A DNA stretch of 6,914 bases from a virus (Duplodnaviria; Heunggongvirae; Uroviricota; Caudoviricetes), in the IMG/VR virus record IMGVR_UViG_3300029234_000076, one strand, 5' to 3'. This document shows, in pieces, positions 1,626-4,756 of this stretch. The notes beneath the pieces are model-generated. The model was not told the DNA's origin. It saw only the letters and a list, made by a program, of their open reading frames with translations, and made no database searches. The first letter of the stretch is position 1, and every line of letters begins with the position of its first letter. Made by a program: the position numbers and the translations under genes.

Positions 1626-1659
1626 CAAAAAATGGAAAAACCCGCTCGACGGCGGGTTT
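1626..1659 (-). terminator. Putative intrinsic terminator on the late-gene strand about 110 nt upstream of S (tR'-like candidate)
   Basis: On the minus strand: stem aaacccgc / gcgggttt (plus 1652-1659 and 1638-1645) with a 6-nt loop, followed by UUCCAUUUUUU. The position relative to S parallels lambda tR' upstream of S. Confidence 0.35.
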
Positions 1660-1699
1660 AAGCTGTGTGACGAAGTAACCACTCTTAACAGCATAACCA

Positions 1700-2087
1700 A
1701 TTTTTTACGTACGTAAACCACTAAATGATATTTGCGAGAATGCTACCGAGTATTGAAAACACCACTACAAATACATAAGCAAATCTCAACAAATAACCAA
1801 CAAATAATTTCCAGTGTTATTTTTAGCCGATTTAAATTGAACCTTCAAATTATAGAGCACTTATAAATAACAACCGTTAGTATAAATTGGCTAATAGATT
1901 TATTTTTATTCAGCCAAGAGCTATGAATAGGATTCGATAGAAAAAAGTTCAGATAAAAATAGAGATCTACTTCACAAATCAAACGAGAAACCAAAACTTA
2001 CATCTTGAAATAATCACATTGATTAGATGAATATTTATCGCGCAGTGACATCATTTTTTAATAATAGTTCAAAAAAAAGGGCTCACG
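1700..2087 (+). promoter_or_regulatory. AT-rich upstream regulatory region and promoter of the porin gene (exact -35/-10 not resolved)
   Basis: About 390 bp, very AT-rich, with no ORF of meaningful size, immediately upstream of the porin ATG. SD AAGGG lies 7 nt before the ATG at 2088. It contains an OmpR-box-like sequence at 1996-2021 (see findings). Confidence 0.4.
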
Positions 2088-3170
2088 ATGAAAAAATTAA
2101 CAGTGGCAATTTCTGCTGTAGCTGCATCAGTACTGATGGCGATGTCTGCTCAGGCAGCTGAAATTTATAATAAAGACAGTAACAAGCTGGATCTGTACGG
2201 GAAAGTTAATGCTAAGCACTACTTCTCCTCTAATGATGCAGATGATGGTGATACTACTTATGCCCGTCTTGGCTTCAAAGGTGAAACCCAAATCAACGAT
2301 CAACTGACTGGTTTCGGTCAGTGGGAATATGAATTCAAAGGCAACCGCGCTGAATCTCAAGGTTCTTCCAAAGACAAAACCCGTCTTGCATTTGCAGGCC
2401 TGAAATTTGGTGATTACGGCTCAATCGATTACGGCCGTAACTACGGTGTAGCATACGACATCGGTGCGTGGACTGACGTCCTGCCAGAATTCGGTGGTGA
2501 TACCTGGACCCAAACAGATGTGTTCATGACTGGTCGCACTACTGGTGTTGCAACTTATCGTAACAACGACTTCTTTGGTCTGGTCGATGGCCTGAACTTT
2601 GCTGCTCAGTATCAGGGTAAAAATGACCGCACTGACGTAACTGAAGCCAATGGTGATGGTTTCGGTTTCTCCACTACTTATGAGTATGAAGGATTCGGCG
2701 TGGGTGCAACCTATGCTAAATCAGATCGCACTGACGGTCAGGTCGCCTATGGTAAGAGCAAATTCAATGCCTCCGGCAAAAATGCGGAAGTATGGGCTGC
2801 AGGCCTGAAATATGATGCGAACAATATCTATCTGGCTACCACATATTCTGAAACTCAGAATATGACCGTTTTTGGTAATAACCATATTGCAAACAAAGCA
2901 CAAAACTTTGAAGCAGTAGCACAATATCAGTTTGACTTCGGTCTGCGCCCATCTGTTGCTTACCTTCAGTCAAAAGGTAAAGACCTTGGTGTTCATGGTG
3001 ACCGAGACTTAGTCAAGTATGTCGATGTCGGTGCTACTTACTACTTTAATAAAAACATGTCCACTTTTGTTGATTACAAAATCAACTTAATTGACGATAG
3101 TAAGTTTACCAAAACAGCTGGTATTGATACTGATGACATCGTTGCTGTAGGTCTGGTTTACCAGTTCTAA
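2088..3170 (+). CDS. nmpC: General bacterial porin, OmpC/OmpF/PhoE family; prophage-borne NmpC/Lc/OmpD-type
   Basis: 360 aa. Signal peptide [23 protein letters not shown]|AEIYNK, conserved porin motifs ([60 protein letters not shown]-terminal VGLVYQF). Oriented opposite to the flanking phage genes and visibly lower in GC than its neighbours. Confidence 0.9.
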
Positions 3171-3332
3171 TCTGATTACGAAAAAGATATGTTGCGGGAG
3201 GCGTTGCCTCCCCAACATATAAGTGGCTCCCTCAAGCCACTTCCTTTAGAAGCACAACCTTGCTTCTAACTATATAAACCTTCTGTTATATATTACCCTT
3301 TATTTTTGGGGGCGTCTCAACGCCCCATTTTT
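3171..3332 (+). ncRNA. ipeX: Structured 3' UTR of the porin gene, IpeX-like sRNA element
   Basis: Four consecutive stem-loops directly after the porin stop: 3187-3220 (15-bp stem with one bulged C), 3221-3242 (8-bp stem), 3246-3269 (9-bp stem), and 3308-3326 followed by a U-tract. This matches the published description of ipeX as lying in the untranslated region between the nmpC/lc stop codon and its rho-independent terminator. Exact 5' end unknown. Confidence 0.5.
3308..3332 (+). terminator. Rho-independent terminator of the porin / IpeX-like transcript
   Basis: Stem ggggcg (3309-3314) / cgcccc (3321-3326), loop tctcaa, followed by auuuuu (3327-3332). The U-tract is on the plus strand only. 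Confidence 0.7.
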
Positions 3333-3359
3333 AATAATTTTTAGTAAACAATTGGCATA

Positions 3360-3743
3360 TTAATTAGAGTTATTAACAACGATATCCATCTCTAACCAGA
3401 TATCTAATGCCATTAACATCCCTTCAATTATGCCCTCAGCTTTTTGTAACCTTTTCCCGATATAACCATCAGAGCAGCAATGCTTACCTGCCAGTGACAT
3501 GAATGTCATACCGACTACATAATAATCTACTAATAAATCGTGCAAATCGCTGTTGTTCTTTTTCAGACGGGCCATGCACCCGCAAATGATCATCGCGTCA
3601 TCGTCACAACATTGCGGGCGAGATTTTACTTTTGAAGGAATTAATCCCTTAAAACCGGCGGCAATGGACGACCAGGTCACATCTTCATGATTATTAGCCG
3701 CCCACGCTCCCCAACGCTCAAGAACCATCTGAATATCACGCAT
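3360..3743 (-). CDS. Q: Late-gene antiterminator Q (phage 21/82-type, QuuD-like)
   Basis: 127 aa from the ATG at 3741-3743: [24 protein letters not shown]...[16 protein letters not shown]...HCCSDGY, with Cys clusters consistent with the zinc-binding Q family. It sits in the classical position upstream of the lysis genes. The ORF-track start at 3758 is a TTG five codons upstream; the ATG is preferred. Confidence 0.85.
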
Positions 3744-3760
3744 CAACTTTCTCCACAAAA

Positions 3761-4756
3761 TCAGGCCAGCACACCAATCGTCAGCGCACGATCGATAAAA
3801 CGAAATATCAGCTCCAGCTGGGAGCCATACTTCTCTTCGAATGCCACATTATCCGCATGCAGCTCGTCGTGATGCTTTCTGCACAAAGGCAACACAAAGA
3901 GGTCATGCGCTTTTGTCCCCATTCCACCCTGACCGTGGCCTATCAGGTGGTGGGGATCATCAGCAGGTTTTCCACAACATGCGCACGGCTGCGTCTTAAC
4001 CCATCGCGTGTACTTTTCATTAACCCAGCGGCGACGTTTTGGGCGTAACATAAAAGAGTCCGGCGACTCCGGATCCACTTTCAGCGCCAGCACCTTTTTC
4101 GCTTTATCCTGGATGATGCTGGTGGCAGGAACCGAAGGCACCAGGTCACTTTCCCGGGTGACAGACGGCACAACAGGCTTCGGTAATCTCAGTGCCTTAC
4201 GGGCTGCACTTTCCGGTAAGGCATCCGCCAGATCATTACGAATCAGCCACCAGCACAGTTCCGGCATTGTCACAACGTGACTGTCATCAAAACCGAGATC
4301 CCGACGCACAACAGACAACACCCAGCGGGCACAGTTATCCGTTGCCATTGATTCCAGCCGTTCCGTGAACTGATCGCGCAGTTGGTTATCGCAGTGCCAG
4401 CACAGACGGATTGCGCCCGGCGCGTGTCGCATTGTGGTCATGTTCTCGCTGTGCCAGTCGGAATGAGGCCACTGGCAGCCTTTTTCACGAAGTAACCAGC
4501 TTTCAAGACATTCCACGCCACCAGCACGACGGATCACTGCCTCATTGCGGAACACGGCCCGAACGGCAGGATCATCCGCCAGCGGTTGTGATGCAGCCGG
4601 AACGGCACCACTGGCAAAAGATGAATAACGTTCCGGCTCAGGCTCCAGCAGGACACGCCCCTGCATAAACAGGGGCATCAGCTCTGAACCTGGCCTGAAC
4701 AATACGATCCCCATACGCGGGGCAATTTCAGGGGTCAGTAGTGCTCTCACGGTCAC
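3761..4756 (-). CDS. DUF968-like prophage protein (Qin YdfU-type) with C-terminal HNH-like Cys/His motif
   Basis: 331 aa. The C-terminal region [43 protein letters not shown] has a C-x2-C...HH...CxxHH arrangement reminiscent of HNH/zinc-ribbon nucleases. The start is GTG at 4754-4756 (or GTG at 4748-4750), one nt after the upstream gene's stop, suggesting translational coupling. Family assignment is from memory. Confidence 0.7.

What the first reader, a model, noticed from the sequence alone, without database searches (positions are those of the whole stretch)
3171..3332. Porin 3' UTR forms four consecutive stem-loops ending in a terminator: IpeX-like phage sRNA element
The roughly 160 nt between the porin stop and the intrinsic terminator is almost entirely base-paired (perfect or near-perfect stems of 15, 8, 9 and 6 bp), far more structure than a simple terminator needs. 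The phage-encoded sRNA IpeX was published as lying in the untranslated region between the nmpC/lc stop codon and its rho-independent terminator, and as reducing host OmpC/OmpF expression. This window appears to carry an intact version together with an intact porin gene and no IS insertion. An alternative reading: the first hairpin (3187-3220) is followed on the minus strand by CUUUUU and could act as a minus-strand terminator for transcripts leaving Q.
Basis: partly seen in the sequence, partly recalled or inferred. Interest (0 to 1): 0.5.

Follow-up and report, generated by a model that had tools for sequence, protein, structure and literature searches.

The report
IpeX, the phage porin 3' UTR RNA
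This stretch is the already published prophage small RNA IpeX, sitting intact behind an intact phage porin gene. The new point is a 24-base-pair match to the ribosome-binding region of the host ompC mRNA, which would give a simple, testable way for it to silence that porin.

Summary
Window 3171-3335 (+) folds far better than shuffled sequence (-62.9 kcal/mol, z = -8.4). It forms three strong hairpins of 15, 8 and 9 bp, one marginal A-U hairpin, and a 7-bp terminator followed by a U run.

The interpretation also holds. Window 3129-3380 is 100% identical to the nmpC-quuD intergenic region of E. coli K-12 prophage DLP12, where IpeX was described. Here the porin ORF is intact, with no IS5. The element is therefore already known.

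Three things were added.
- About 40 nt (3270-3308) are effectively unstructured, so the UTR is not almost entirely base-paired.
- That open segment pairs with the ompC leader at -31 to -7, covering the Shine-Dalgarno sequence, as 9 + 15 bp (total -17.4 kcal/mol). The best of 222 control 5' regions reached -4.1.
- It also pairs with ompF at -15 to +9 (-9.9). It pairs with neither ompA nor the phage's own porin leader.

Reviews state that no complementarity to ompC exists, so this pairing may have been overlooked.

The porin-ipeX block lies between Q and its late promoter pR'. Hairpin 1 may also terminate transcripts leaving Q on the other strand.

The parts
3171..3337 (+). IpeX, the 3' UTR of the phage porin mRNA (167 nt from after the stop codon to the end of the terminator U tail)
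   Evidence: 100% identical to the K-12 DLP12 nmpC-quuD intergenic region. The length matches the 167 nt given in a review table. Fold z = -8.4.
2088..3170 (+). Intact NmpC/Lc-type porin gene (360 aa), the parent transcript of IpeX
   Evidence: ORF. Pfam Porin_1 positions 1-337 of 337, E = 1.9e-151. Annotated as a porin in near-identical genomes. No IS5, unlike K-12.
3187..3220 (+). Hairpin 1: 15 bp with one bulged C, loop GUU
   Evidence: -22.2 kcal/mol, z = -6.7. One compensatory C-G to U-A change in E. albertii.
3181..3220 (-). The same hairpin read on the Q strand, followed by C-UUUUU: candidate intrinsic terminator for early transcripts leaving Q
   Evidence: -20.8 kcal/mol on the minus strand. 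The T run is 5 here and 4 in some variants. Lambda_4B5, with a related Q and a different convergent cargo gene, has a clear Q-strand terminator in the same position. Inferred, not shown.
3221..3242 (+). Hairpin 2: 8 bp, 6-nt loop
   Evidence: -10.4 kcal/mol, z = -4.4.
3246..3269 (+). Hairpin 3: 9 bp, 6-nt loop
   Evidence: -9.6 kcal/mol, z = -6.3.
3271..3292 (+). Marginal hairpin 4 of A-U pairs only (7 bp, 8-nt loop), effectively open
   Evidence: -1.3 kcal/mol, and 7 of 200 shuffles fold as well. Opening the seed costs only 3.4 kcal/mol.
3277..3305 (+). Predicted seed. 3277-3291 (15 bp, one G-U) plus 3297-3305 (9 bp) pair with ompC mRNA -21 to -7 and -31 to -23. 3285-3300 pair with ompF -14 to +2.
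   Evidence: Own accessibility-corrected duplex scans. 4 of 29 columns vary among 17 variants, against 24 of 58 for other unpaired positions, p = 0.014.
3309..3337 (+). Rho-independent terminator of the porin/IpeX transcript: 7-bp G+C stem, 4-nt loop, then AUUUUUAAUAA
   Evidence: Terminator scan. -12.5 kcal/mol. Stem invariant and loop variable in 17 variants.
3360..3743 (-). Antiterminator Q gene (quuD type), convergent with the porin
   Evidence: Pfam Phage_antitermQ, E = 4.5e-53. Annotated quuD in matching genomes.
1636..1718 (-). Late promoter pR', qut-like stretch and terminator tR', upstream of holin S. This shows the porin-ipeX block sits between Q and pR'.
   Evidence: 77% identity to the annotated pR'/qut/terminator of phage 933W. 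Terminator at 1659-1638.

Best explanation
The region is ipeX, the 3' untranslated tail of a porin gene of the nmpC/lc family carried by a lambdoid prophage of the DLP12/PA-2 type.

The porin gene is lysogenic-conversion cargo. It lies between the antiterminator gene Q and the late promoter pR' and is transcribed against the phage genes. Its transcript ends at the terminator at 3309-3337. The tail then acts on host porin mRNAs, either while still attached to the porin mRNA or after being cut off.

The most likely mechanism is ordinary antisense pairing. The open, A/U-rich segment 3277-3305 lies just upstream of a U-rich stretch and the terminator hairpin, which is the usual layout of a 3'-UTR-derived, Hfq-type small RNA. 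This segment pairs with the ompC leader from -31 to -7 as 9 + 15 bp across the Shine-Dalgarno sequence. It pairs more weakly with the ompF Shine-Dalgarno and start codon. Pairing would block ribosome binding and expose the mRNAs to decay. The phage's own porin leader is not complementary and so escapes, and the lysogen replaces host porins with the phage porin.

The three strong upstream hairpins probably stabilise the RNA. Hairpin 1 may also stop Q-strand transcripts from running antisense into the porin gene.

Shown here: identity with ipeX, the structure, the genomic context, the complementarity and its statistical rarity, and conservation of the seed. Inferred: that the pairing happens in cells and causes the published repression, processing of the RNA, any role of Hfq, and the roles of hairpins 1-3.
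For: Identity and context
- Window 3129-3380 is 100% identical to the K-12 DLP12 nmpC-quuD spacer (features).
- The literature places the 167-nt IpeX in DLP12/PA-2, made from the porin promoter as part of the porin transcript and repressing OmpC and OmpF.
- No sigma-70-like promoter was found on the plus strand near the end of the porin gene, consistent with IpeX arising from the porin mRNA.

Structure
-.

Pairing with ompC and ompF
- With 24-nt windows, IpeX 3277-3291 pairs with ompC -21 to -7 as 15 contiguous bp (total -12.8 kcal/mol). IpeX 3279-3301 pairs with ompF -15 to +9 (-9.9). ompA scores 0.0 and the phage porin's own leader +0.8.
- Both targets beat all 222 control 5' regions, whose best values were -9.7, -9.3 and -4.9, with a median of +4.5. 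The longest complementary run is 15 for ompC and at most 13 in controls.
- With 36-nt windows the ompC duplex is bipartite, 24 bp, with hybridisation -26.4 and total -17.4 kcal/mol. Controls reach -4.1 at best, with a median of +8.7.
- As a positive control, the same pipeline finds MicF-ompF at its start-codon site with -13.5 kcal/mol.
- Co-folding of the 3' domain gives ddG -18.2 for ompC, -13.1 for ompF and -4.6 for ompA.

Conservation
- The ompC leader is at least 99% identical in 5344 of 5371 E. coli genomes. The motif ATATAACAGAGGGTT precedes ompC in many Enterobacteriaceae.
- The seed is conserved among 17 ipeX variants, including E. albertii at 88.7% overall identity, where the one seed change is C to U opposite G, still a wobble pair.
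- The porin and ipeX stay together when Q is lost in E. albertii.
- Chromosomal ompD-type porins of other genera have no such tail.
Against: - Reviews state that IpeX has no complementarity to ompC and that its action may be indirect. I recall the same statement from the abstract of the primary paper, which I could not read. Either the pairing was missed, perhaps because the G-U pair and the internal loop break it into exact runs of 9, 10 and 4 nt, or experiments I cannot see argue against it.
- No experiment here shows that the duplex forms.
- The ompF score (-9.9) is only just beyond the two best controls (-9.7 and -9.3).
- The controls are 222 ORF-derived 5' regions from other enterobacteria, not the whole E. 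coli transcriptome.
- One variant carries U3284A in the middle of the 15-bp helix, and one carries U3304C.
- The U tail directly after the terminator is only five U, which is short for strong Hfq binding.
- Covariation does not support or refute the hairpins.
Confidence: 0.7

Rival explanations
1. IpeX represses porins without pairing to their mRNAs, for example by titrating Hfq or another RNA-binding protein, or through an indirect envelope-stress route, as the literature suggests. On this view the complementarity found here is irrelevant.
For: Reviews say the mechanism does not rely simply on complementarity, and that no complementary sequence exists. IpeX is described as Hfq-independent for ompC. 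The RNA has three very stable hairpins that could bind proteins.
Against: A 24-bp bipartite duplex over the ompC Shine-Dalgarno sequence lies 13 kcal/mol beyond the best of 222 controls. The second reported target, ompF, is the next best. ompA, which I recall as reported unaffected, scores at background. The seed is conserved. A long duplex would itself explain independence from Hfq.
Confidence: 0.2
2. The hairpin array is chiefly a termination and insulation zone between two convergent transcription units. Hairpin 1 plus CUUUUU stops early transcripts leaving Q on the minus strand, and the 3309-3326 hairpin stops the porin transcript on the plus strand. The remaining hairpins protect the porin mRNA 3' end from exonucleases. 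This does not exclude a trans-acting role.
For: On the minus strand hairpin 1 folds at -20.8 kcal/mol and is followed by C plus five U. pR' lies beyond the porin, so the only minus-strand transcripts entering this region are those leaving Q. Lambda_4B5 has an 88% identical Q and a different convergent cargo gene (blc), and it has a clear Q-strand terminator right after that cargo gene's stop codon.
Against: The simple terminator scan does not call it, because of the bulge. The U run shrinks to four in 5 of 17 variants. N-modified polymerase would ignore it during lytic growth. It does not explain hairpins 2-3, the conserved open segment, or the published trans effect of the cloned fragment.
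Confidence: 0.4
3. The complementarity is a relic. The minus strand of 3277-3305 may be an inverted remnant of a porin 5' leader picked up during recombination, with no present function.
For: The reverse complement of the seed (AAAUAAAGGGUAAUAUAUAACAGAAGGUU) reads like a hybrid of the ompC and ompF leaders, which suggests common descent rather than convergence.
Against: Origin by inversion does not prevent function. The segment is among the least variable unpaired parts of the UTR. It is predicted to be accessible. It lies exactly where seeds of 3'-UTR small RNAs lie, and the cloned fragment has the matching published phenotype.
Confidence: 0.1

Closest known systems
IpeX of E. coli K-12 cryptic prophage DLP12 and of phage PA-2 (Castillo-Keller, Vuong and Misra 2006)
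   Same: Same sequence: 100% identity over 3129-3380 to the K-12 locus. Same position between the porin stop codon and its terminator, same neighbouring Q gene, same 167-nt span.
   Different: Here the porin gene is intact, as in PA-2 lc, whereas K-12 nmpC is split by IS5 58 nt before its stop codon. The published account, as relayed by reviews, found no complementarity to ompC. This analysis finds a 24-bp duplex.
MicF and MicC, chromosomal antisense small RNAs that repress ompF and ompC
   Same: The predicted mode of action is the same: imperfect pairing across the Shine-Dalgarno and start region of a porin mRNA. MicF-ompF scores -13.5 kcal/mol in the same pipeline that gives IpeX-ompC -12.8 to -17.4.
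   Different: No sequence relationship, and no Rfam family matches. IpeX is phage-borne and is the tail of an mRNA rather than a separate gene. One overlapping seed addresses both porins.
3'-UTR-derived Hfq-type small RNAs such as CpxQ, MicL, DapZ and SroC (class named from my own knowledge)
   Same: It shares the terminator of the parent mRNA, and an accessible conserved seed lies just upstream of a U-rich stretch and the terminator hairpin. A review reports that it is made by processing of a longer precursor.
   Different: Processing sites and Hfq binding were not tested here. The U tail is short, and three large extra hairpins lie upstream of the seed.
Cargo genes ('morons') in the Q-to-S late region of lambdoid phages, such as stx in 933W or blc in Lambda_4B5
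   Same: The same genomic slot next to Q is used for a conversion gene with its own promoter and terminator.
   Different: In 933W the cargo lies downstream of pR' and is co-transcribed with the late genes. Here the cargo lies upstream of pR', is antisense to the phage, and replaces the last 17 or so codons of Q.

Membership tests
IpeX (DLP12 / PA-2 prophage small RNA) | Sequence identity with the K-12 ipeX locus | tested here: met
   Window 3129-3380 is 100% identical to NC_000913.3 between the nmpC stop codon and quuD. The RefSeq copy carries no ipeX feature, so the equation of this spacer with ipeX rests on the literature description.
IpeX (DLP12 / PA-2 prophage small RNA) | Lies between the stop codon of an nmpC/lc-type porin gene and its Rho-independent terminator, in a lambdoid prophage | tested here: met
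   Porin stop codon ends at 3170, terminator at 3309-3326 plus U run. Prophage genes Q, S, R and Rz flank it.
IpeX (DLP12 / PA-2 prophage small RNA) | A stable plus-strand RNA of about 167 nt is produced, from or as part of the porin transcript | not testable with these tools
   Needs a Northern blot, RACE or RNA-seq from a lysogen. Only the 167-nt span (3171-3337) and the absence of a nearby promoter-like site are consistent with it.
IpeX (DLP12 / PA-2 prophage small RNA) | Lowers OmpC and OmpF expression post-transcriptionally | not testable with these tools
   Reported in the literature. Here there is only predicted pairing to both leaders.
Base-pairing, Hfq-type 3'-UTR-derived small RNA | Accessible conserved seed with significant complementarity to the translation initiation region of its targets | tested here: met
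   The ompC total of -17.4 kcal/mol compares with a best of -4.1 in 222 controls. ompF scores -9.9, better than all 222 controls. Seed opening cost is 3.4 kcal/mol. Seed conservation p = 0.014.
Base-pairing, Hfq-type 3'-UTR-derived small RNA | Rho-independent terminator with a U tail and an adjacent U-rich single strand for Hfq binding | tested here: inconclusive
   The terminator and the upstream UUUAUUUUU are present, but the tail has only five U before AAUAA. Hfq binding itself was not tested. The literature gives mixed Hfq dependence.
REP / BIME dispersed extragenic palindromes | The same palindromic unit is repeated at many intergenic sites in the genome | tested here: not met
   A REP-finding tool lists ipeX as containing a REP. 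However, the element occurs 1-3 times per genome, only at this prophage locus, and the hairpins are not copies of each other.
Any Rfam family | Score at or above a family's gathering threshold | tested here: not met
   No match at gathering thresholds in the whole window. Only chance-level matches (E > 1) appear in 3050-3450.

The most novel reading that the evidence does not exclude
IpeX may not be the non-pairing oddity it has been cited as for twenty years. It may be a conventional antisense RNA whose conserved open segment (3277-3305) pairs over 24 bp with the ompC Shine-Dalgarno region and over about 15 bp with the ompF Shine-Dalgarno and start codon, while sparing the phage's own porin leader.

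The seed's reverse complement looks like a hybrid ompC/ompF leader. The phage may therefore have captured an inverted piece of a host porin leader and placed it in the tail of its own porin mRNA, giving a one-transcript porin-swap device. The longer ompC duplex would also explain why ompC repression was reported to be Hfq-independent and ompF repression Hfq-dependent.
Probability: 0.45. Interest if true: 0.55.

Novelty: already known. Interest (0 to 1): 0.4.

Why it matters
As an element it is not new. It is the published IpeX, present in about 46% of complete E. coli genomes (2500 of 5426). It goes unannotated because Rfam has no family for it.

What could matter is the mechanism. Reviews cite IpeX as a phage RNA that silences host porins without complementarity. 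A strong, conserved, accessible duplex with the ompC ribosome-binding site turns that puzzle into a simple hypothesis that a few point mutations can test.

It would also give a clean example of a phage swapping host surface porins for its own through a single transcript. From my own knowledge, OmpC is the receptor of phage PA-2, which bears on superinfection exclusion and on porin-dependent antibiotic permeability in lysogens.

Tried and rejected
- Rfam, at gathering and permissive thresholds, gave nothing meaningful.
- The primary IpeX paper could not be read by DOI, PMC id or PubMed id. Nine of the ten allowed literature searches turned up only reviews and passing mentions, none describing an IpeX-ompC duplex.
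- Covariation analysis failed because the homologues are too similar. There was one compensatory pair, no better than shuffles.
- More distant homologues were sought. Eighty porin loci from species-representative genomes yielded ipeX only in E. coli and E. albertii. Eighty viral contigs all carried the identical porin and added only minor variants.
- My first interaction scan used full-length duplexfold and gave meaningless 150-nt 'duplexes'. It was discarded.
- In the 36-nt scan, pre-filtering to the 12 best hybridisation energies lost the ompF site. The ompF figure therefore comes from the 24-nt scan.
- REP identity was rejected.
- A minus-strand late promoter inside 3333-3400 was looked for by eye and by scan and was not found. 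The real pR' is at 1690-1717.
- A 43-aa minus-strand ORF at 3087-3218 overlaps hairpin 1 and the end of the porin gene. It has nothing to support it and was set aside.

Full report
**What is in the sequence**

The window is a lambdoid prophage whose genes run on the minus strand:
- Rz at 347-817, R at 802-1299 and holin S at 1299-1514;
- antiterminator Q at 3360-3743, with nin-region genes beyond it.

A 360-aa porin gene lies on the plus strand at 2088-3170 and matches Pfam Porin_1 over its full length.

The 189 nt between the porin stop codon and the Q stop codon hold the finding. On the plus strand, 3171-3335 folds at -62.9 kcal/mol, against -30.6 +/- 3.9 for dinucleotide shuffles (z = -8.4). 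The separate elements are:
- H1, 3187-3220: 15 bp with one bulge, -22.2 kcal/mol.
- H2, 3221-3242: 8 bp, -10.4 kcal/mol.
- H3, 3246-3269: 9 bp, -9.6 kcal/mol.
- H4, 3271-3292: a marginal hairpin of A-U pairs only, -1.3 kcal/mol.
- Terminator, 3309-3326: 7 bp, -12.5 kcal/mol, followed by AUUUUUAAUAAUUUUU.

About 40 nt (3270-3308) are effectively open, so the UTR is not 'almost entirely' paired.

**What it is**

Window 3129-3380 is identical at every base to E. coli K-12 MG1655 between the nmpC stop codon and quuD in cryptic prophage DLP12. In K-12, IS5 splits nmpC 58 nt before its stop codon. That IS5 is absent here.

The literature places IpeX in DLP12 and in phage PA-2. It describes IpeX as 167 nt, made from the porin promoter as part of the porin transcript and then processed, and repressing OmpC and OmpF. 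3171-3337 is 167 nt. A list of EcoCyc small RNAs places ipeX between chiX and sokE, which fits DLP12.

It has no Rfam family. It is not annotated in the RefSeq copy of MG1655, although micF is. It is not annotated in other genomes either. It is common: 2500 of 5426 complete E. coli genomes carry the 3' domain, in up to three copies.

I could not read the primary paper. Statements about its content come from reviews or from my memory of the abstract and are marked as such.

**Context**

A block at 1636-1718 (minus strand) is homologous to the annotated late promoter pR', qut site and first terminator of phage 933W. Its parts are -35 TTTACG, -10 TATGCT, and a terminator at 1659-1638, which one search also found.

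Similarity of Q to 933W and to Lambda_4B5 stops at window 3411 and 3384 respectively. The segment from about 1719 to 3410 is therefore cargo inserted between Q and its own pR'. It comprises the porin promoter, the porin gene, ipeX and a new Q C-terminus, and it is transcribed against the phage.

Lambda_4B5 uses the same slot for a convergent blc gene.

In E. albertii a degraded prophage keeps bor, the porin and an 88.7%-identical ipeX. Similarity ends right after the terminator U run, where host genes resembling ycgN, ycgM and ycgL begin. The tail thus travels with the porin, not with Q.

Chromosomal ompD-type porins of Salmonella, Citrobacter, Enterobacter and others (74-81% amino-acid identity) have no ipeX-like tail.

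**Evidence on the structure from variation**

Seventeen distinct variants were collected. Variable columns number 9 of 78 in the strong stems and 24 of 58 in unpaired positions outside the predicted seed (p = 9e-5). The terminator stem never varies, while all four loop positions do.

Formal covariation is uninformative. There is one compensatory pair, and 118 of 500 shuffles do as well.

**Mechanism**

Reviews say IpeX has no complementarity to ompC and may act indirectly. I tested this with an accessibility-corrected duplex scan: ViennaRNA duplexfold on sliding windows, plus the ensemble cost of opening both sites.

With 24-nt windows:

| Target | Site in IpeX | Site in target | Total (kcal/mol) |
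|---|---|---|---|
| ompC | 3277-3291, AACCUUCUGUUAUAU | -21 to -7, AUAUAACAGAGGGUU, including the GAGGG Shine-Dalgarno; 15 contiguous bp, one G-U | -12.8 |
| ompF | 3279-3301 | -15 to +9 | -9.9 |
| ompA | - | - | 0.0 |
| phage porin's own leader | - | - | +0.8 |

Both reported targets beat all 222 control 5' regions taken from other enterobacterial genes. The control values were -9.7, -9.3 and -4.9 at best, with a median of +4.5. The longest complementary run was 15 for ompC and at most 13 in controls.

With 36-nt windows the ompC duplex becomes bipartite. IpeX 3297-3305 (CCUUUAUUU) also pairs with ompC -31 to -23, giving 24 bp in all, with hybridisation -26.4 and total -17.4 kcal/mol. Controls reached -4.1 at best, with a median of +8.7.

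As a positive control, the same pipeline recovers MicF-ompF at its start-codon site with -13.5 kcal/mol. Co-folding the 3' domain with each leader gives ddG of -18.2 for ompC, -13.1 for ompF and -4.6 for ompA.

Both partners are conserved:
- The ompC leader is at least 99% identical in 5344 of 5371 E. coli genomes, and its motif precedes ompC in many genera.
- The IpeX seed has 4 variable columns of 29. A one-base shortening of the U run, seen in five variants, does not affect pairing. The C-to-U change in E. albertii keeps a wobble pair. The other two changes, U3284A and U3304C, are each confined to one variant.

The seed sits where seeds of 3'-UTR-derived small RNAs sit: in an open stretch, followed by UUUAUUUUU and the terminator hairpin.

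I therefore think the most likely mechanism is plain antisense occlusion of the ompC and ompF ribosome-binding sites, with the phage's own porin leader spared. The length of the ompC duplex would also explain the reported Hfq independence for ompC but not for ompF. The Hfq independence for ompC is echoed; the contrast with ompF is my memory of the abstract. This whole step is inferred; no experiment here shows it.

**The other strand**

pR' lies beyond the porin gene, so the only minus-strand transcripts entering the region are early ones leaving Q. Read on that strand, the 3309-3326 hairpin is followed by CAAAAAUAAAGGG, with no U run after it, and cannot terminate. Hairpin 1 folds at -20.8 kcal/mol and is followed by C plus five U.

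Lambda_4B5 has a clear Q-strand terminator at the equivalent place, right after its convergent cargo gene.

It is weakened by the shorter U run in 5 of 17 variants, and it does not account for the rest of the element.

**Verdict**

The element is already known and ordinary in itself.

The one thing worth carrying forward is the strong, conserved, accessible complementarity to the ompC and ompF translation start regions. The accessible literature does not mention it and in fact denies it. Simple compensatory mutations would test it.

Noticed in passing
window 1636-1718 (minus strand): Late promoter pR' (-35 TTTACG, -10 TATGCT), a qut-like stretch and terminator tR' (1659-1638 plus T run), homologous to the annotated 933W pR'/qut/terminator. 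Q and its own promoter are therefore separated by about 1.64 kb of antisense porin cargo.
   Followed up: partly
window 3360-3410 (minus strand, 3' end of Q): The last 17 or so codons of Q are not homologous to the related Q genes of 933W (similarity starts at 3411) or Lambda_4B5 (3384). The cargo insertion seems to have replaced the Q C-terminus.
   Followed up: no
L032 (E. albertii NBRC 107761 contig NZ_BBMY01000161.1), 231-4689: A prophage remnant keeps a bor gene, the porin and an 88.7%-identical ipeX. Host genes resembling ycgN, ycgM and ycgL follow directly. Similarity to the window ends just after the terminator T run, so the porin and ipeX persist as a unit without Q.
   Followed up: partly
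L006 (Lambda_4B5), 3302-3983: A phage with an 88%-identical Q carries a convergent blc lipocalin gene in the same slot. A clear Q-strand intrinsic terminator (3884-3861) lies between the two genes.
   Followed up: partly
window 2842-2864 (+), inside the porin coding region: A perfect 10-bp hairpin (CATATTCTGA AAC TCAGAATATG) followed by ACCGTTTTTG was flagged as terminator-like inside the porin ORF.
   Followed up: no
NC_000913.3 574340-574528 (L001 3341-3529): The RefSeq copy of MG1655 annotates micF and other small RNAs but has no ipeX feature. No Rfam family matches, and nothing is annotated under the element in other genomes.
   Followed up: yes
window 3328-3347 and 3360-3379: An imperfect 20-nt inverted repeat (75% complementary) spans the terminator tail and the Q stop codon. 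It is A/T-rich and may be chance.
   Followed up: no
L015-L031 (chromosomal ompD-type porin loci of Salmonella, Citrobacter, Enterobacter, Lelliottia, Klebsiella): The closest non-phage relatives of the porin (74-81% amino-acid identity) have no ipeX-like sequence and no anti-ompC seed downstream. The tail is specific to the prophage-borne copies in Escherichia.
   Followed up: partly
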